Shown piece after piece: positions 39,131 through 44,194 of a stretch of 64,000 nt of DNA. The translations under genes and the position numbers were made by a program. The notes under the pieces were generated by a model. It saw only the letters and a program-made list of their open reading frames with translations, made no database searches and was not told the origin of the DNA. Location: contig OX638340.1 in NCBI GenBank assembly GCA_951812955.1, positions 1,984,001 to 2,048,000 of the forward strand, given 5' to 3'. Every line of letters starts with the position of its first letter. Within the stretch, counting starts at the first letter, position 1. This DNA comes from an uncultured Gemmatimonadota bacterium (lineage in GTDB: Bacteria > JAAXHH01).

Positions 39131-39469
39131 TCAGGACGCCTTCTTGTCCTCCCGTTCCTCATCCTCGTGCCGCAGTTCTTCTTCCCGGTCCGCTATGCTC
39201 TCCTGCGACGCCTTGACCCGTTCCAGAATGCCATTCACCTCCGTATCTCCCGACACGTCGGTGATTCCTTCCTCGACCACCATCTGGTGTACACGGCCGC
39301 CAAGTTCGGTCAACTGGTTGCGGATATCGGCGCGGGCCGACTGAATTTCAAGCTTAATCCGTCCTTTCCGCGTGAGGTCTTCCGCCATGTCCAGCGCGCC
39401 GGACAGGCTTTTGCGCACGGTTTCGAACGGGCCGTCCAATTCCGACTTGATCGTTTGCCAGAGGTTCAT
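39131..39469 (-). CDS. Small acidic coiled-coil protein, unknown function, 112 aa
   Basis: GGAG RBS 7 nt upstream of the ATG and its own terminator. Predicted helical, Glu/Arg-rich. No family recognised. Confidence 0.5.
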   Translation of the reverse strand: MNLWQTIKSELDGPFETVRKSLSGALDMAEDLTRKGRIKLEIQSARADIRNQLTELGGRVHQMVVEEGITDVSGDTEVNGILERVKASQESIADREEELRHEDEEREDKKAS

Positions 39470-39595: not shown

Positions 39596-40285
39596 TCAAC
39601 GATAGAGCGCGTAGGCGACTATGTTGATCCCCATTCGAAAGGCGGTCTCCCGTTTCGCCGGCGGATCGTTGTGGGTCTTTTCGTCGGCCCAGCCGTCACT
39701 GACATTGCTTTCGTACGTGTAATACACTACCAGCCGTCCGTCGTGGAAGAGGCCGAATCCCCGCGGCGGTTTGCCATCGTGTTCGTGATGTTTGGGCGGG
39801 CCGGACGGGAAGTCGTAGATGATGTGATAGATCGGATGGTCGAAAGGCAACTCGACAAAATCCTGGTCGGGAAAGACGCGCTTCATTTCCCGACGAAATG
39901 CCCGGTCCATGCCGTAATCGTCATCGGCATAGAGAAACCCGCCGCGCGTCAAGTACTTACGCAGGTTGCGGATTTCCGGCTCGGTCCACTTCACTTCTCC
40001 GTGGCCGGTCATGAACAGGAAGGGTGAAGAGAACAACAGATCATCGGTCAGGGTTACGACACGCTGATCCAGATTCGTCTCTATGCCGGCGCGCAGTTGC
40101 AGTTCACGGGCCAGGTTGGGAATCGCCTCGGGGTCGTTGTACCAATCGCCCCCGCCGTCGTACTTCATCCGCGCAATGGACAGCCTGCCGTTTTCGTTCT
40201 CGGCTGCGCGCCCGTAAGAAGCCGTCCACCCGGAGGCGAGGCCGCACAGCAGGAGCGCGGTCACGCTTCTGAGGAAGGAGTTCAT
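39596..40285 (-). CDS. Secreted DUF4159-family protein, about 229 aa
   Basis: Signal peptide (LLLCGLASGWTASYG). Start at MNSFLRS; the ORF-track N-terminal extension is Pro/Ala-rich and unlikely to be real. Conserved LFMTGHGEVKWTEPEIRNLRKYLTRGGFLYADDDYG block. The DUF4159 assignment is from memory. Confidence 0.5.
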   Translation of the reverse strand: MNSFLRSVTALLLCGLASGWTASYGRAAENENGRLSIARMKYDGGGDWYNDPEAIPNLARELQLRAGIETNLDQRVVTLTDDLLFSSPFLFMTGHGEVKWTEPEIRNLRKYLTRGGFLYADDDYGMDRAFRREMKRVFPDQDFVELPFDHPIYHIIYDFPSGPPKHHEHDGKPPRGFGLFHDGRLVVYYTYESNVSDGWADEKTHNDPPAKRETAFRMGINIVAYALYR

Positions 40286-40301
40286 CGCGGGAGGCTCCGG
40301 A

Positions 40302-40469
40302 TCATCTGCGACCGCCGGGCCTGGCGGGCCGGGCTCTGCCGCCCGTGCGAGGTCCGGAGGCACGCACGCGCTGTCCGCCGCCGGCAAGTGCCATCAGATA
40401 GACCAGGCCAATCGCGACTAAACCCAGAATAACCGTACCGATCACGCTGAAACCAATCGTCGCCAGCAT
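40302..40469 (-). CDS. Predicted 55-aa single-TM micro-protein (MLATIGFSVIGTVILGLVAIGLVYLMALAGGGQRVRASGPRTGGRARPARPGGRR); not in the ORF track
   Basis: ATG preceded by AAGGAGA at -11 to -5. Hydrophobic helix followed by a basic tail. Ends 16 nt before the DUF4159 start. Confidence 0.35.
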   Translation of the reverse strand: MLATIGFSVIGTVILGLVAIGLVYLMALAGGGQRVRASGPRTGGRARPARPGGRR

Positions 40470-40537: not shown

Positions 40538-41542
40538 TCACCCGTCGACTCCCGCGGGCCGCCCGCTGTCTTTCAGGCTCCAGTCCAGCAGACGCTTCAT
40601 GTCCGTGAACCGTGTTCGGCTGGTCGGTCCGCCAAGTATGACGGCGTAAATGTCATCTCCCGAGTCTCCACGCGCACGCATGACGAGACAGTATCCGGCC
40701 CGGCGGATGTAACCTGTCTTGCTGCCCATGCTCTCCCACTGACTTTGAAACACCCTGTCGCGCACCAGCCGATTGGTGGTCCGTATAGTATGCGTCCGCC
40801 TGTTCGTACCAAACCTGTGCTCCCTTGCAAACAGGACTTCCGCCAGTAATTCATCCTGCAGCGCGGTCCACAGAAGGGCTACGCAGTCCACCGCCGAGGA
40901 AACATTACCGGCGTCCAGCCCGGTAGGTTCGGTAAATCGGGAGTTTGCCAGACCAAGTGATGCCGCAGTTGCGTTCATGCGGTTCGCGAATGCATCGATG
41001 GTAAGGCCCGATGCGCGTGCCAGTGCGCGCGCCGCTGCGTTATCCGAAGCGACCAGGGTTGCGTAAAGCAGGTCCTTCGCCGAGACCTGTTCCCCGAACC
41101 TGAGTCGTGTCCAGTTAGCCCGGTATACGTCCTGTCGTGAAATGCTGACCCGCTTATCCAGATCCGGATCCATCCGCATATAGGTCACCGCGGTCATCAG
41201 TTTCGTGATACTCGCGATCGGGAACGGCGACGTGGCATTCTTCTGATAGATCACCTCGCCCTTCTGCATATCTATGACAAGCGCGGCCCGGGAGCGTACG
41301 CGGATTCCGCGGTCGCGCGCCGTTGACCCGGCGGTCTGCGGTTCAGCCCTTCCGGGAGCCGCTTCCGGGGCAGACGGTACGGGGGGATATACGTCATCGT
41401 TGCGGACTTCAGCCCCGTTCGATACGGCCTCCGGTTCTGATCCGAAGACCGGTACCGGGTTCACGGAAACTGAAACGGCGAGAAGCACCAGAGCGCACGT
41501 AGCCCAAGCCGTCCTGTAACGGGTCGAAACGGCATTGTCCAT
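40538..41542 (-). CDS. D-alanyl-D-alanine carboxypeptidase (S11 peptidase, PBP5/DacA-like), 334 aa
   Basis: Signal peptide, SITK (SxxK) active site, SDN and KTG-like motifs. Confidence 0.8.
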   Translation of the reverse strand: MDNAVSTRYRTAWATCALVLLAVSVSVNPVPVFGSEPEAVSNGAEVRNDDVYPPVPSAPEAAPGRAEPQTAGSTARDRGIRVRSRAALVIDMQKGEVIYQKNATSPFPIASITKLMTAVTYMRMDPDLDKRVSISRQDVYRANWTRLRFGEQVSAKDLLYATLVASDNAAARALARASGLTIDAFANRMNATAASLGLANSRFTEPTGLDAGNVSSAVDCVALLWTALQDELLAEVLFAREHRFGTNRRTHTIRTTNRLVRDRVFQSQWESMGSKTGYIRRAGYCLVMRARGDSGDDIYAVILGGPTSRTRFTDMKRLLDWSLKDSGRPAGVDG

Positions 41543-41576
41543 AGGCTGGGATTATAGGAAGGGGGATGTACCTAAG

Positions 41577-43127
41577 TCAAGGTGATTCAAGCCGGAAATC
41601 CAGACTGGCCTGCAGGGAAGGTACATCCCTGTCCAGGCCATCTTCATCCTTCGAGACCGACTGGCCATCTCCGACGGGCTGAAGATCGATATGGACCCTG
41701 ACCTGGCGGTCCTCGATACTGAACGAGGAATAGGACAGGTCCTGAGGGAGGATTTTCAATCGGCAGTCGAAGATCCGGTTTTCGGTAATTTCGGAGAGTT
41801 CAATCGTGGGCGAAGTCACTACCCGCACGATCTGGTCAATTTCCATTTCCCGGCCGGTTATGGGTACCGAGGGCGGATCAACGGTGACCCGCACGATTTC
41901 CAGGCCCTCCGGCAATTTGCCCGCCAGTTCGTGATCGATCATGATCCGTCTGTTCACGATTCGATCGGACCTGATGGTGAGGCTTCTCGGATCGATCGAG
42001 GTGGCGTCGACCCCGAAAGGCAATTCTACATTTGCTTCCGTGAGCGGCATGGTGTGGGTCCCGGGTTCAATATCGTCCAGATCGACCATGACGCGTACTT
42101 GGTCCGACGTCAGGGTTGAAATACTGCCCTGTGGGCCCCGAACCCTTACGTTCACCTCGCTGGTCGAATTGCTGATCAACTCGATATTGGTCGGAATGTT
42201 CTGAAATTCCAACGCGGCTGTTATGGCTATTTCGGAGGTGTGCTGGCCGATCAGGGTGAACCACAACAGGCAGGAAACCCCGATCGAGGCCAATTTGGCG
42301 GTGAGGCTGCTGCGATTGAGCCGGAATCCCGACCGGAGCGCGAAGATCTTCGCCATGGCCTCCCTCAGCGACGGCCTGCTTCGTGGTATCTCGATCGGCA
42401 GCAACGATTTCTCCAGCGTCTGCCAGAGTTTTTCGCGGTCGGCCACGGCGGTGATATCACCGTTGGACGCCACGGAAACCTCGCCGCTCTCTTCGGACAC
42501 CACCACGCAAAATGTATCGCCGAGTTCTGAAACCCCCAGTGCCGCCCGGTGCCGCGTGCCGTACCGGGGCGGGAGATGGTCCCTGGACGAAAGCGGCAGG
42601 TAGGTGCCGGCTTCGACCACACGGTCCTTCTTCACGATAATCGCGCCATCGTGTATTGGCGAGGCGGGATGAAAGATGCTGACGATCAGTTCCTGGCTTA
42701 CGAGACTGTCGAGTTTGATGCCGTGCTGCACGGCGCCGGTAATCCCGGTCGCCCTGGGGAAGACCAGCAGGCCGCCGATGCGCTTCTCGGACAGTTCGAA
42801 ACAGGCCTCGGTGATCTCCTTCAGAATGCGACGGGAGACCGGGTTGTTCTTGAACCTGAAGATTACCAGGGGACTCACTCTCTCCAGCAGTTGCCTGATC
42901 TCAGGCTGGAAGACCACGATGATCAGTAGGAGAATAACACCGAGGAGGTACTGCAGAATCTGGGTGGTAAGGAGGAGTCCGCTCCAGTTCGCGATACTGT
43001 AGAGGATACCCAGACCGCCGAGACCGATCAGGATATGATAGGCCCGCGTGCCCTCCAGCCACATGTAAAGGCTGTAGATCAACGCCGCTATGATGAAAAT
43101 ATCCAGCAGGTTGACTAGATCAAACAT
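41577..43127 (-). CDS. cdaA: Diadenylate cyclase CdaA fused to a CdaR-like TM helix plus YbbR-like domains, 516 aa
   Basis: Three N-terminal TMs, DAC domain (DGAIIV, TRHRAALG), a fourth TM (LASIGVSCLLWFTLIG), then two YbbR-like beta-rich repeats (VNVRVRG...VDLDDIEPG...; VRVTVDPPSVPITG...). Single uninterrupted ORF. Confidence 0.75.
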   Translation of the reverse strand: MFDLVNLLDIFIIAALIYSLYMWLEGTRAYHILIGLGGLGILYSIANWSGLLLTTQILQYLLGVILLLIIVVFQPEIRQLLERVSPLVIFRFKNNPVSRRILKEITEACFELSEKRIGGLLVFPRATGITGAVQHGIKLDSLVSQELIVSIFHPASPIHDGAIIVKKDRVVEAGTYLPLSSRDHLPPRYGTRHRAALGVSELGDTFCVVVSEESGEVSVASNGDITAVADREKLWQTLEKSLLPIEIPRSRPSLREAMAKIFALRSGFRLNRSSLTAKLASIGVSCLLWFTLIGQHTSEIAITAALEFQNIPTNIELISNSTSEVNVRVRGPQGSISTLTSDQVRVMVDLDDIEPGTHTMPLTEANVELPFGVDATSIDPRSLTIRSDRIVNRRIMIDHELAGKLPEGLEIVRVTVDPPSVPITGREMEIDQIVRVVTSPTIELSEITENRIFDCRLKILPQDLSYSSFSIEDRQVRVHIDLQPVGDGQSVSKDEDGLDRDVPSLQASLDFRLESP

Positions 43128-43252: not shown

Positions 43253-44038
43253 TCAAACAGCCTGCCCGCTCCGGGATGGGGGCACTGTACGTTCGCTCCG
43301 GGATGGGGATGCCGCCCGATCGTCGCGGGATGCAGTTGCCGCACGGTCGCTCCGGGATGGGGGCGCCGCACGGTCGCCGGTCCGCAGCGGAGGCAGGGTC
43401 AGGACGTTGCTGAAGGCCGTTCCGCCCGAAACGACGAATTCCAGGGCTTCCTCCACGGGCAGGTCCACGGGTATCACGTCCCGCCGAGGCACGATCACGA
43501 CGCGGCCGGCCGCGGGATTGGGTGTGTTGGGAACGAAGACGCTGACCATATTCTCGCGATCGTCCTCACTGGGGATCTCCCCGGCTATGAAAGCGATCAT
43601 CCACGCCCCGCGGCGCGGGTACTCCACCAACACCGTCTTCCATGTGCGGGTCTCACCCACCTTCGCGAAGGAGTCCAGCAGTTTCTTTACCGGGTGGTAG
43701 ACTCTTCGTGCGACGGGCAGCCGCATCATCTGGTCCTCGAACCAGGAAATCAACCTGCTGCCCAGAACGTTCGACGCTACGAAGCCGGCCAGGTAGATCA
43801 CGACCAGCATGAGCAGAATTCCCAGTCCCGGTATGCGGGTATCCAGGTCCAGCAGTCCCCGGATGACCGGTTCGGCGAACGAGTCCAGCCAGGTCAGTAG
43901 CCAACTCAGTATGGCGACCGTGGCGGCGAGCGGGATCAGCACGAGCAATCCCGACACCATCGTTCGCTTCACGTTCTGACGGATACGCGCTATCGCCGAA
44001 GGGCGCTTCAAATTGGAATCGAGATGGAAGGTGGACAT
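43253..44038 (-). CDS. DUF502-family membrane protein with a C-terminal 9-aa tandem-repeat tail, about 261 aa
   Basis: Two N-terminal TMs and the DUF502 core. C-terminus PPSRSDRAA/TASRDDRAA/SPSRSERTV/PPSRSGQAV. Start at MSTFHLD (44038). Confidence 0.6.
   Translation of the reverse strand: MSTFHLDSNLKRPSAIARIRQNVKRTMVSGLLVLIPLAATVAILSWLLTWLDSFAEPVIRGLLDLDTRIPGLGILLMLVVIYLAGFVASNVLGSRLISWFEDQMMRLPVARRVYHPVKKLLDSFAKVGETRTWKTVLVEYPRRGAWMIAFIAGEIPSEDDRENMVSVFVPNTPNPAAGRVVIVPRRDVIPVDLPVEEALEFVVSGGTAFSNVLTLPPLRTGDRAAPPSRSDRAATASRDDRAASPSRSERTVPPSRSGQAV
43267..43374. repeat. Four tandem copies of a 27-bp unit (CGCTCCGGGATGGGGGCNCCGCACGGT) encoding the DUF502 C-terminal repeats
   Basis: Direct reading of copies at 43267, 43294, 43321 and 43348. 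Confidence 0.8.
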
Positions 44039-44194
44039 AGGCACATTGCTCGAAAAATCGACAACCCGGGAATACGGTACCGGCCACACGGCCGCATGGA
44101 ATTCCTTGGCGTTCCATCGATCCGGCCAGCCGCATCAGGCTATTGACCGGCTACCCTGGCTACCCTATTTGACGCTGAATCTGCTACGATGGTT

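What the first reader, a model, noticed from the sequence alone, without database searches (positions are those of the whole stretch)
41577..43127. Single-polypeptide CdaA-CdaR fusion (c-di-AMP cyclase plus YbbR-domain regulator) adjacent to a PBP5-type D,D-carboxypeptidase
In the characterised Firmicutes system cdaA, cdaR (ybbR) and glmM are separate genes. Here one 516-aa ORF encodes 3 TM, then the DAC domain, then a fourth TM, then two YbbR-like beta domains. This topology puts the YbbR domains outside the membrane. The next gene downstream is dacA-like rather than glmM. A covalent fusion fixes 1:1 stoichiometry of cyclase and its extracytoplasmic regulator. Together with the PBP5 neighbour it points to direct coupling of c-di-AMP synthesis to peptidoglycan status, in an architecture not described experimentally.
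Basis: partly seen in the sequence, partly recalled or inferred. Interest (0 to 1): 0.55.

Follow-up and report, generated by a model that had tools for sequence, protein, structure and literature searches.

The report
Fused CdaA–CdaR c-di-AMP cyclase gene
This is a genuine single gene joining the enzyme that makes the bacterial signal c-di-AMP to its usual membrane partner CdaR; the fusion is real but belongs to a large, already-catalogued (though never experimentally studied) family, so it is of modest interest.

Summary
The 516-aa ORF at 41577..43127 (minus strand) is real. Its layout is 3 TM helices, a DAC domain with intact DGA/RHR motifs, a K/R-rich linker, a 4th TM helix, two YbbR domains and a disordered tail. 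It is not a frameshift artefact: the same continuous ORF recurs in many independent assemblies and in more than 150 clusters at 50% identity. The source is a marine Gemmatimonadota MAG lineage; a near-identical 516-aa protein is in NCBI nr as "diadenylate cyclase CdaA". On the shared TM+DAC region, fused proteins form one clade (195/200 bootstraps), plus one independent Firmicute-type fusion. A 2023 review already notes CdaA–CdaR fusions in streptococci, so the architecture is not new. glmM follows cdaA–cdaR in 41/64 unfused loci and 0/19 fused loci. The neighbour is an S11 enzyme closer to PBP7/PbpG DD-endopeptidases than to PBP5. That adjacency holds only in the Gemmatimonadota/Latescibacteria subclade. 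Other fused lineages carry a LysM domain or sit next to LysM or NlpC/P60 genes, so a cell-wall link is plausible but unproven. Verdict: new member of a known kind; interest 0.33.

The parts
41577..43127 (-). cdaA-cdaR fusion gene (516 aa plus stop)
   Evidence: ORF. Pfam DAC + YbbR x2. TIGR00159 above its cut-off. Aligns end to end with 49 fused homologues.
42912..43118 (-). Residues 4-72: three N-terminal TM helices (CdaA_N-type membrane module)
   Evidence: Hydropathy. AF2 helices 4-24, 28-49, 52-72. Aligns to TM region of full-length CdaA 9g69. Pfam CdaA_N 22.8 bits, just under the 23.8 cut-off.
42402..42833 (-). Residues 99-242: cytoplasmic diadenylate cyclase (DAC) domain with DGA (160-162) and RHR (192-194) motifs
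   Evidence: Pfam DAC E 5.8e-37. Motifs invariant in 50 sequences. Foldseek TM-score about 0.9 to CdaA crystal structures. pLDDT about 85-92.
42315..42401 (-). Residues 243-271: K/R-rich flexible cytoplasmic linker. It corresponds to the cationic tail of CdaA joined to the cytoplasmic N-terminal stub of CdaR.
   Evidence: 6 K/R versus 1 D/E in residues 255-285. pLDDT below 50 at 245-252 and 262-272. CdaA's 'flexible cationic C-terminal region' is described in PMC11686323.
42246..42314 (-). Residues 272-294: fourth TM helix, equivalent to the CdaR membrane anchor
   Evidence: Hydrophobic segment 275-294. AF2 helix 272-292. W289 invariant and K278 nearly invariant across the fused family.
41934..42239 (-). 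Residues 297-398: periplasmic YbbR domain 1
   Evidence: Pfam YbbR 31.3 bits when scanned alone. Profile hits to YbbR structures 2l3u, 5hqh, 2kpu, 3lyw and 4qdy. Beta-rich with pLDDT about 85.
41676..41903 (-). Residues 409-484: periplasmic YbbR domain 2
   Evidence: Pfam YbbR 34.3 bits when scanned alone. Profile hits 2kxy (positions 385-477) and 4qdy. pLDDT about 80-85.
41580..41675 (-). Residues 485-516: acidic, disordered C-terminal tail, poorly conserved
   Evidence: pLDDT below 50 for 487-516. Variable in the alignment.
41551..41580 (-). Sigma-70-like promoter match TTGACT-18-TATAAT (11 of 12). It overlaps the cdaA-cdaR stop codon, and the -10 hexamer ends 9 nt before the S11 ATG.
   Evidence: Conserved only in the 97% relative; the region is not alignable in the ~50% relatives. 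This is a consensus match only.
40538..41542 (-). Peptidase_S11 low-molecular-weight PBP (334 aa), single-domain and PBP7/PbpG DD-endopeptidase-like, with a signal-like N-terminus and SITK111 / SDN166 / KTG275 motifs
   Evidence: Pfam Peptidase_S11 E 1.6e-44 with no PBP5_C hit. NCBIfam best hit PRK11669. PDB best hits 6muq and 6azi. Motifs. Adjacent to the fusion gene in all Gemmatimonadota/Latescibacteria-clade loci.
40302..40469 (-). 55-aa ORF encoding a one-TM mini-protein. A small ORF is conserved at this position (55-84 aa) between S11 and DUF4159 in related loci.
   Evidence: Called genes at the same position in L081, L084, L087, L088 and the P0043 contig. No Pfam hit.
39596..40285 (-). 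DUF4159 protein (probably 229 aa starting at the ATG at 40285; the longest ORF starts at TTG 40387). It is the last member of the conserved core fusion-S11-small ORF-DUF4159.
   Evidence: Pfam DUF4159 E 3.6e-65. Homologues are called at 226-241 aa.

Best explanation
The gene encodes a genuine one-polypeptide CdaA-CdaR: a membrane-bound diadenylate cyclase that makes c-di-AMP from two ATP, covalently joined to its usual regulator. It belongs to a large and old fused clade.

Shown here:
- The N-terminal half has all the sequence hallmarks of an active CdaA: a three-TM module, a DAC fold, and the DGA and RHR motifs.
- The C-terminal half is homologous to the CdaR gene that lies immediately after cdaA in unfused genomes.
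- The topology is seamless. The cytoplasmic tail of CdaA runs into the cytoplasmic stub of CdaR, crosses the membrane once (TM4), and places two YbbR domains in the periplasm.
- The fusion is inherited, not an assembly error.

Inferred:
- The fusion arose by loss of the stop codon between adjacent cdaA and cdaR. Many unfused loci have the two genes in the same frame, 0-6 nt apart.
- TM4 packs against the CdaA TM bundle, as CdaR's TM does in Firmicutes.
- The periplasmic YbbR domains respond to an unidentified envelope cue. They alter how freely the DAC domains can meet head to head in the oligomer, and so set the rate of c-di-AMP synthesis. The sign of this regulation is unknown.
- Control by GlmM, the third member of the classical operon, has been lost or moved in trans in this clade.
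- In the Gemmatimonadota/Latescibacteria subclade the gene travels with a PBP7-like DD-endopeptidase, and in one case also with a class A PBP. The envelope cue is therefore plausibly related to peptidoglycan, but this is association only.
For: - Domains, motifs and thresholds.
- Solved-structure matches for both halves.
- Topology. The N-out/DAC-in topology of CdaA and its cationic tail are described in PMC11686323. The TM-TM contact between CdaR and CdaA is described in PMC10243994 and PMC8316131.
- Not an artefact: a 17-member 90% cluster from many assemblies, including closed 3.8-3.9 Mb contigs; more than 45 fused homologues at 97-30% identity; nearly all of the best 150 representatives at 50% identity match in one stretch across DAC, TM4 and YbbR.
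- Homology of the C-terminal half to the adjacent cdaR: it hits the ORF right after cdaA in 36 of 64 unfused loci, with gaps of -28 to +87 nt, many in the same frame.
- Single old origin: on the TM+DAC region alone, the fused proteins form one clade with 195/200 bootstraps. P0115, with four YbbR domains, nests among Firmicutes and represents an independent fusion.
- glmM: downstream in 41/64 unfused loci and 0/19 fused loci, and none in the window (Fisher p = 2.7e-7).
- Peptidoglycan association: the fusion-S11-small ORF-DUF4159 core is kept while both flanks change, and a class A PBP is inserted in L087. LysM is fused to the ectodomain in P0056 and P0163, which are 61% identical. LysM and LysM-NlpC/P60 genes lie directly downstream in L028 and L029.
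Against: - There is no experimental evidence for any fused member, so enzyme activity and regulation are inferred from homology.
- The model's pTM is only 0.38 and the linker has low confidence. The packing of TM4 against TM1-3 is therefore not established, and I could not inspect the coordinates.
- The direction of CdaR's effect differs between species: it activates in Chlamydia (PMC12422730) and represses in P. gingivalis (PMC9259658).
- The glmM contrast is not phylogenetically independent, because the fused loci are essentially one clade. The flanks are also only 6-10 kb, so glmM may simply lie elsewhere.
- The S11 adjacency is absent from the 16 fused loci outside the subclade.
- A strong promoter-like site between the two genes argues against obligatory co-transcription.
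Confidence: 0.8

Rival explanations
1. Direct functional coupling. The periplasmic YbbR domains sense peptidoglycan state or products generated by the adjacent S11 DD-endopeptidase, or bind that enzyme. In this view the cyclase and the PBP form one cell-wall-monitoring module that sets c-di-AMP levels.
For: - The S11 gene directly follows the fusion gene in every locus of the Gemmatimonadota/Latescibacteria subclade, even though the flanks are rearranged. In L087 a class A PBP is added.
- Independent peptidoglycan links exist in other fused lineages: LysM fused to the ectodomain (P0056, P0163), a LysM protein downstream (L028) and a LysM-NlpC/P60 hydrolase downstream (L029).
- The classical system is itself tied to wall precursor synthesis through GlmM (PMC6368335 and PMC10243994).
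Against: - This is neighbourhood evidence only.
- S11 is absent within 8 kb of cdaA in all 80 other loci, including 16 fused ones.
- Most distant fused loci have unrelated downstream genes.
- An 11/12 promoter match lies between the genes.
- The conserved block also contains genes with no known wall role (DUF4159), so inherited synteny is not excluded.
- No ligand of any YbbR domain is known (PMC10636490).
Confidence: 0.2
2. The YbbR part has no signalling role. The fusion merely stabilises or anchors the cyclase, for example as a fourth TM helix plus a periplasmic 'plug' that fixes oligomeric state. Regulation would then come from elsewhere: substrate or ion levels, GlmM in trans, or phosphodiesterases.
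For: - The function of CdaR is still described as unknown, and its effect varies in sign between species.
- Membrane embedding alone raises CdaA activity by more than 100-fold through oligomerisation (PMC11686323).
- The family tolerates one or two YbbR domains, and the sequence is poorly conserved in the ectodomain compared with DAC.
Against: - The YbbR domains are retained in more than 150 divergent clusters with recognisable conserved positions: N310, G331, L350, G356, P370 and P380.
- Some lineages add LysM to the ectodomain, which suggests the outside part does something specific.
- Deleting or knocking down CdaR or YbbR changes c-di-AMP levels in P. gingivalis and Chlamydia.
Confidence: 0.15
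3. Assembly or sequencing artefact: two separate genes, cdaA and cdaR, wrongly joined by a frameshift or a missed stop codon near residue 250-270.
For: - In unfused genomes the two genes are often in the same frame and only 0-6 nt apart, so a single base error could in principle create such an ORF.
- The reads could not be inspected.
Against: - The same continuous ORF is found in many independent assemblies from different samples and sequencing centres, including closed contigs of about 3.9 Mb.
- It is also found in homologues from 97% down to about 30% identity and in more than 150 clusters at 50% identity.
- The junction region aligns without gaps in close relatives and holds conserved residues.
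- On the TM+DAC region alone the fused proteins form their own clade with 195/200 support. Random artefacts would not do that.
Confidence: 0.01

Closest known systems
CdaA(DacA)-CdaR(YbbR)-GlmM module of Firmicutes (B. subtilis, L. monocytogenes, S. aureus, L. lactis)
   Same: - The same CdaA core: three TM helices plus a DAC domain with DGA and RHR motifs, TIGR00159 above its cut-off, and about 38-44% identity to solved DAC domains.
- The same partner type: one TM anchor plus extracytoplasmic YbbR repeats.
- The same relative topology.
   Different: - One polypeptide instead of two.
- Two YbbR domains instead of three or four.
- No glmM downstream or anywhere in the 64-kb window.
- The host is a diderm (Gemmatimonadota), so the YbbR domains face the periplasm.
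CdaA-CdaR fusion proteins noted in some streptococcal strains (UniProt A5LQF8, E1M7C3, V8IIN0; FEMS Microbiol Rev 2023, PMC10243994)
   Same: A covalent CdaA-CdaR fusion in one ORF. That review used AlphaFold models of these fusions to suggest that CdaR's TM helix contacts TM1 of CdaA.
   Different: - The streptococcal cases are strain-level occurrences within a lineage whose norm is separate genes. I did not examine those sequences.
- The protein here belongs to a deep, well-supported clade in which fusion is the norm.
- The Firmicute-type fusion I did see (P0115) has four YbbR domains and groups with unfused Firmicute CdaAs.
Two-gene dacA-ybbR systems of diderm bacteria (Chlamydia trachomatis, Borrelia, Leptospira; unlinked cdaR in Porphyromonas gingivalis)
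   Same: - A Gram-negative envelope.
- A CdaA-type cyclase paired with a YbbR protein.
- No glmM in the operon in Borrelia and Leptospira.
- No DacA-GlmM interaction detected in Chlamydia.
   Different: - The genes are separate in those organisms.
- Experimental data exist there: YbbR activates in Chlamydia and CdaR represses in P. gingivalis. None exist for the fused form.
E. coli PBP7/PbpG-type DD-endopeptidases (comparison for the neighbouring gene only)
   Same: A single-domain Peptidase_S11 with SxxK, SxN and KTG motifs. The best NCBIfam hit is PRK11669, and the best solved relatives are 6muq and 6azi, which the depositors name DD-endopeptidases.
   Different: - It scores 166 bits against a curated cut-off of 294, so it is not an equivalog.
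- It has a roughly 80-residue Pro/Ala-rich N-terminal extension after the signal-like segment.
- Its substrate specificity is untested.

Membership tests
CdaA-type diadenylate cyclase (TIGR00159 / COG1624) | DAC (DisA_N) catalytic domain with the conserved DGA and RHR motifs | tested here: met
   Pfam DAC E 5.8e-37. D160-G161-A162 and R192-H193-R194 are invariant in 50 sequences. Foldseek TM-score about 0.9 to CdaA structures.
CdaA-type diadenylate cyclase (TIGR00159 / COG1624) | Three N-terminal transmembrane helices preceding the DAC domain | tested here: met
   Hydropathy. AF2 helices 4-24, 28-49 and 52-72. Aligns to residues 28-268 of full-length CdaA 9g69. Pfam CdaA_N alone is marginally sub-threshold, 22.8 vs 23.8 bits.
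CdaA-type diadenylate cyclase (TIGR00159 / COG1624) | Score at or above the curated equivalog cut-off | tested here: met
   196.7 bits versus a cut-off of 188.8.
CdaA-type diadenylate cyclase (TIGR00159 / COG1624) | Synthesises c-di-AMP from ATP | not testable with these tools
   Needs an enzyme assay or heterologous expression with LC-MS.
CdaR / YbbR regulator | YbbR (PF07949) repeats above the gathering score | tested here: met
   Whole protein 56.2 bits. Domains scanned alone give 31.3 and 34.3 bits versus 22.3. Profile hits to YbbR structures, including Lmo2119 (5hqh).
CdaR / YbbR regulator | A single TM anchor placing the YbbR repeats outside the cytoplasmic membrane | tested here: met
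   TM4 at 272-294, with a K/R-rich segment before it and an acidic segment after it. This is predicted topology only.
CdaR / YbbR regulator | Encoded next to cdaA | tested here: met
   Here it is fused to cdaA. The C-terminal half is homologous to the ORF immediately after cdaA in 36 of 64 unfused loci.
CdaR / YbbR regulator | Three or four YbbR domains, as in Firmicute CdaR | tested here: not met
   Only two domains are present. Firmicute CdaR is stated to have three or four in PMC10243994 and PMC10636490. The fused family also has one-domain forms.
CdaR / YbbR regulator | Modulates CdaA activity | not testable with these tools
   Needs genetics or biochemistry.
Classical cdaA-cdaR-glmM operon | glmM immediately downstream of cdaR | tested here: not met
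   No GlmM-like sequence in the whole window. Present in 0/19 fused loci versus 41/64 unfused loci.
PBP5/DacA-type DD-carboxypeptidase (neighbour gene) | Peptidase_S11 catalytic domain with SxxK, SxN and KTG motifs | tested here: met
   Pfam E 1.6e-44. SITK111, SDN166 and KTG275.
PBP5/DacA-type DD-carboxypeptidase (neighbour gene) | C-terminal PBP5_C beta-sandwich domain and membrane-anchoring amphipathic helix | tested here: not met
   No PBP5_C hit. The S11 domain ends at residue 306 of 334.
PBP5/DacA-type DD-carboxypeptidase (neighbour gene) | Closest similarity to DacA, DacC or DacD | tested here: not met
   DacA model 73.5 bits versus a cut-off of 694. PBP5 structures score about 59 bits, against 131-136 bits for the endopeptidases 6azi and 6muq.
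PBP7/PbpG DD-endopeptidase (neighbour gene) | Reaches the curated PRK11669 equivalog cut-off | tested here: not met
   165.9 bits versus a cut-off of 294. It is the best-matching subfamily, but the protein is not an equivalog.

The most novel reading that the evidence does not exclude
The fused CdaA-CdaR clade is a distinct, GlmM-independent branch of c-di-AMP signalling. In it, the link to the cell wall has moved from the cytoplasm (GlmM, precursor supply) to the periplasm. The YbbR ectodomains read peptidoglycan state directly or through partner enzymes. The evidence would be the recurrent association with a PBP7-like endopeptidase, a class A PBP, a LysM-NlpC/P60 hydrolase, and LysM fused to the ectodomain. 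If so, these natural fusions would finally reveal the long-unknown signal sensed by YbbR/CdaR.
Probability: 0.2. Interest if true: 0.6.

Novelty: new member of a known kind. Interest (0 to 1): 0.33.

Why it matters
What CdaR/YbbR senses, and how it controls the essential cyclase CdaA, is still unknown even in model Firmicutes. A natural covalent fusion fixes the stoichiometry and the proximity of the two membrane parts. It is therefore a convenient object for structural work on the CdaA-CdaR interface and for reconstitution.

The clade-level patterns found here give concrete, testable hints that the ectodomain works in a peptidoglycan context. These are a single old origin, no glmM linkage, and repeated association with peptidoglycan-binding or peptidoglycan-modifying proteins. 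The window's gene by itself is an ordinary member of that family.

Tried and rejected
- **Exact look-up of the window protein:** not on record. I used the 97% relative instead.
- **Papers not held:** Galperin 2023 'All DACs in a row' (PMC10127676 and its DOI), He 2020 (PMC7102992), Commichau 2019 (PMC6287462) and Yin 2020 (PMC7850090). I therefore cannot say whether the fused family is already one of Galperin's 22 DAC families. One search call failed on phrase length.
- **Genome-contig scan:** Clade synteny came from the look-up of encoding contigs instead.
- **Rfam:** no c-di-AMP (ydaO-type) riboswitch or any other regulatory RNA in the window, only two tRNAs.
- **Foldseek with the whole model:** the 50 matches listed, of 332, were all DAC-domain structures. 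Support for the YbbR fold therefore comes from the profile-sequence search, not from fold comparison.
- **Promoter conservation:** aligning the fusion-S11 intergenic regions to test conservation of the promoter-like site was uninformative beyond the 97% relative.
- **Terminators:** no convincing terminator lies between the fusion gene and S11; the nearest candidates fall inside coding sequence.
- **Frameshift artefact:** considered and rejected (see rival explanations).
- **'PBP5-type' label for the neighbour:** considered and rejected.
- **Coordinate error:** one Pfam call failed on a coordinate out of frame and was repeated correctly.
Full report
**1. Observation**

The window holds an ATG-initiated ORF of 516 codons at 41577..43127 on the minus strand. 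Pfam finds a DAC domain at residues 107-224 (E 5.8e-37) and two YbbR stretches (E 4.3e-15). The CdaA_N membrane module is marginally sub-threshold. NCBIfam's CdaA equivalog TIGR00159 scores 196.7 bits against a cut-off of 188.8. Scanned on their own, residues 295-401 and 402-516 each pass the YbbR gathering score, at 31.3 and 34.3 bits against 22.3.

A profile of 50 fused homologues matches CdaA structures. It also matches solved YbbR proteins over both C-terminal domains: 4qdy across positions 294-453, 2l3u, 5hqh (deposited as 'Lmo2119 protein', which I recall as the Listeria CdaR locus tag, not checked here), 2kq1, 2kxy across 385-477, 2kpu and 3lyw.

Hydropathy and charge distribution and an AlphaFold2 model (mean pLDDT 75.5) agree on the anatomy:
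- TM helices at 4-24, 28-49 and 52-72, followed by an amphipathic linker.
- A DAC domain at 99-242 (pLDDT about 85-92; Foldseek TM-score about 0.9 to CdaA crystal structures).
- A K/R-rich, low-confidence linker at 243-271.
- A fourth TM helix at 272-292.
- Two beta-rich domains at 297-398 and 409-484.
- A disordered acidic tail.

The catalytic DGA (160-162) and RHR (192-194) motifs are invariant in the family.

**2. Not a frameshift artefact**

The 90% cluster of the closest relative (97% identity) has 17 members from many assemblies, including contigs of 3.8-3.9 Mb, and all are 516-517 aa. More than 45 homologues from 97% down to about 30% identity carry the same continuous DAC+YbbR architecture. 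They align end to end, with conserved residues inside the junction and TM4 (K278 and W289).

An exhaustive profile search of 1.84 billion representatives shows that nearly all of the best 150 clusters at 50% identity match in one stretch across DAC, TM4 and YbbR. They fall into two size classes, about 390 aa with one YbbR domain and about 480-520 aa with two. The list is still in fused proteins at E about 1e-102 when it is cut off.

**3. Source and annotation status**

Named relatives are marine Gemmatimonadota MAGs. One member of the same 90% cluster is in NCBI nr as MCY4544898.1, 'diadenylate cyclase CdaA [Gemmatimonadota bacterium]'. The exact sequence of the window protein is not on record.

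**4. Origin of the fusion**

In a scan of species-representative genomes, 16 of 80 related loci have a single fused ORF. These come from Desulfobacterales and other 'delta' lineages, NC10, Geobacteraceae and an Isosphaeraceae planctomycete. The other 64 loci have a cdaA of about 270 aa.

In 36 of those 64 unfused loci, the C-terminal half of the window protein hits the ORF immediately after cdaA. The gaps run from -28 to +87 nt, and the two genes are often in the same frame only 0-6 nt apart. This is a classic gene-fusion relationship, and losing a single stop codon would be enough to create it. The topology is also seamless. CdaA's cytoplasmic cationic tail (PMC11686323) continues into CdaR's cytoplasmic stub and its single TM anchor.

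A neighbour-joining tree built only on the region shared by fused and unfused proteins (TM+DAC, 237 columns, 103 sequences) places all fused proteins except one in a single clade. That split appears in 195 of 200 bootstrap replicates. The exception is P0115 (728 aa, four YbbR domains), which nests among Firmicute CdaAs and represents an independent fusion.

**5. Prior art**

[quoted passage not shown] A5LQF8, E1M7C3, and V8IIN0)'. It uses their AlphaFold models to suggest that TM1 of CdaA contacts the CdaR TM helix (PMC10243994). The concept of a CdaA-CdaR fusion is therefore published.

I found no experimental work on any fused protein and no mention of the Gram-negative fused clade. However, the most relevant survey (Galperin 2023) and three other reviews are not held in the library.

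**6. glmM**

Using a GlmM sequence taken from the Lactobacillus locus L047 as bait, a GlmM-like gene lies downstream of cdaA-cdaR in 41 of 64 unfused loci. These include Acidobacteriota, Nitrospirota, Bdellovibrionota, Rokubacteria and Zetaproteobacteria. It is present in 0 of 19 fused loci and nowhere in the 64-kb window (Fisher p = 2.7e-7).

Two caveats apply. The fused loci are essentially one clade, so this may reflect one evolutionary event rather than 19. The flanks are also limited to 6-10 kb.

**7. The neighbour gene**

The gene 34 nt downstream (40538..41542, minus strand, 334 aa) is a single-domain Peptidase_S11 protein with a signal-like N-terminus and the SITK, SDN and KTG motifs. 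It has no PBP5 C-terminal domain. Its best NCBIfam model is the DD-endopeptidase PRK11669, at 166 bits and below the 294 cut-off, while DacA scores only 73 bits. Its best solved relatives are the DD-endopeptidases 6muq and 6azi (136 and 131 bits), against about 59 bits for PBP5. 'PBP5-type' is therefore inaccurate, and 'PBP7/PbpG-like' is the better description.

**8. Is the adjacency meaningful?**

Within the Gemmatimonadota/Latescibacteria subclade (200/200 bootstraps), every locus examined keeps the core order: fusion gene, S11, a small ORF of 55-84 aa, then DUF4159. Both flanks change around it:
- Upstream is DUF502 plus an ABC transporter in the window, L081 and L085/86.
- Upstream is an M48 peptidase in L084, L087, L088 and the P0043 contig.
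- Downstream is either a sugar ABC transporter or DnaJ and MscS.

In L087 a class A PBP (transglycosylase plus transpeptidase) is inserted right after S11.

Outside this subclade no S11 gene lies within 8 kb of cdaA in any of the 80 loci. Three other observations nevertheless point the same way:
- P0056 and P0163, which are 61% identical, are DAC-YbbRx2-LysM proteins.
- The gene 44 nt after the fused gene in L028 encodes a TM-coiled-coil-LysM protein.
- The gene 108 nt after the fused gene in L029 encodes a LysMx2-NlpC/P60 hydrolase.

Against obligatory co-expression, an 11-of-12 sigma-70-like match (TTGACT-18-TATAAT) overlaps the stop codon of the fusion gene and ends 9 nt before the S11 ATG. 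Its conservation could not be assessed beyond the 97% relative. Overall, a cell-wall connection is plausible, and I put direct coupling at about 0.2. It is not shown.

**9. Mechanism**

Shown by sequence and model:
- An apparently active CdaA cyclase core.
- A CdaR-type anchor and ectodomain in the same chain.
- A periplasmic location of the YbbR domains by predicted topology.

Inferred from established knowledge:
- CdaA must oligomerise through its TM domain so that DAC dimers can meet head to head (PMC11686323).
- CdaR contacts CdaA through the TM segments (PMC10243994 and PMC8316131).

In the fusion, TM4 is therefore expected to sit on the CdaA TM bundle. The roughly 29-residue cationic tether ties the C-terminal end of the DAC domain back to the membrane. 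An envelope cue acting on the YbbR domains could then change the mobility or pairing of the DAC domains, and with it the rate of c-di-AMP synthesis.

The sign of that regulation cannot be predicted. YbbR is needed for DacA activity in Chlamydia, where no GlmM interaction was detected (PMC12422730). CdaR represses synthesis in P. gingivalis (PMC9259658).

**10. Verdict**

The finding is real and was correctly read at the level of architecture. The gene is, however, a typical member of a large fused CdaA-CdaR family that databases already hold and annotate as CdaA, and fusion of the two proteins has been noted in print. The clade-level patterns are modestly interesting leads towards the unknown signal of YbbR/CdaR: a single old origin, no glmM linkage, and recurrent peptidoglycan-related partners. 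Interest is 0.33, and I classify it as a new member of a known kind.

Noticed in passing
window 41551-41580 (-): A near-consensus sigma-70-type promoter match (TTGACT-18-TATAAT, 11 of 12) overlaps the stop codon of the fusion gene. Its -10 hexamer ends only 9 nt before the S11 start codon, which would give a leaderless or almost leaderless S11 transcript.
   Followed up: partly
window 43267-43377: A 27-nt tandem repeat (4.1 copies, 76% matches) encodes 9-residue Arg/Ser/Pro/Ala-rich repeats in the C-terminal tail of the upstream DUF502 membrane protein (43253..44089, minus strand, 278 aa). The 97%-relative's DUF502 gene is called at 261 aa, so the copy number may vary.
   Followed up: no
window 40302-40469 (-); also L081 12662-12829, L084 10681-10869, L087 6171-6359, L088 8672-8857: A small ORF (55-84 aa; in the window a one-TM peptide with an Arg/Gly-rich tail) always sits between the S11 gene and the DUF4159 gene in the Gemmatimonadota/Latescibacteria subclade. 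It has no Pfam match.
   Followed up: partly
window 39596-40387 (-): The longest DUF4159 ORF starts at a TTG (263 aa) and overlaps the small ORF. Homologues are called at 226-241 aa, so the real start is probably the ATG at 40285 (MNSFLRS..., 229 aa).
   Followed up: partly
L087 166-1029 and 3591-5975; L084 6918-7790; L088 4971-5837: In relatives an M48 peptidase gene lies directly upstream of the fusion gene. It is absent at that position in the window, where DUF502 is the upstream gene. In L087 a 794-aa class A PBP is inserted between S11 and the small ORF.
   Followed up: partly
L008, L010, L011, L013, L014, L025, L026, L027 (cdaA/cdaR junctions): In several Acidobacteriota, Nitrospiraceae and Zetaproteobacteria loci, cdaA and cdaR are in the same reading frame, separated only by the stop codon and 0-6 nt. 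They are one point mutation, or one read-through event, away from the fused form.
   Followed up: partly
P0056, P0163 (proteins); L028 9445-10053; L029 9245-10282: Some fused cyclases carry a C-terminal LysM domain after the YbbR repeats. In two other fused loci the next gene encodes a LysM protein or a LysMx2-NlpC/P60 hydrolase.
   Followed up: yes
L002 4235-5695: In one deltaproteobacterial MAG, the gene overlapping the end of the fused cyclase gene by 4 nt encodes a GAF-GGDEF-like protein (both Pfam hits just below their gathering cut-offs). This hints at a possible c-di-AMP/c-di-GMP pairing.
   Followed up: no
one search hit list (e.g. P0158, P0169, P0176 versus P0156, P0157): The fused family has two discrete size classes: about 385-410 aa with one YbbR-like domain, often missed by Pfam, and about 470-520 aa with two. 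P0279 (768 aa) shows four DAC stretches and no YbbR, an odd multi-DAC protein.
   Followed up: no
window 39131-39469 (-): A 112-aa coiled-coil-like protein with a weak DUF7118 match is conserved downstream of DUF4159 in most subclade loci. Its function is unknown.
   Followed up: no
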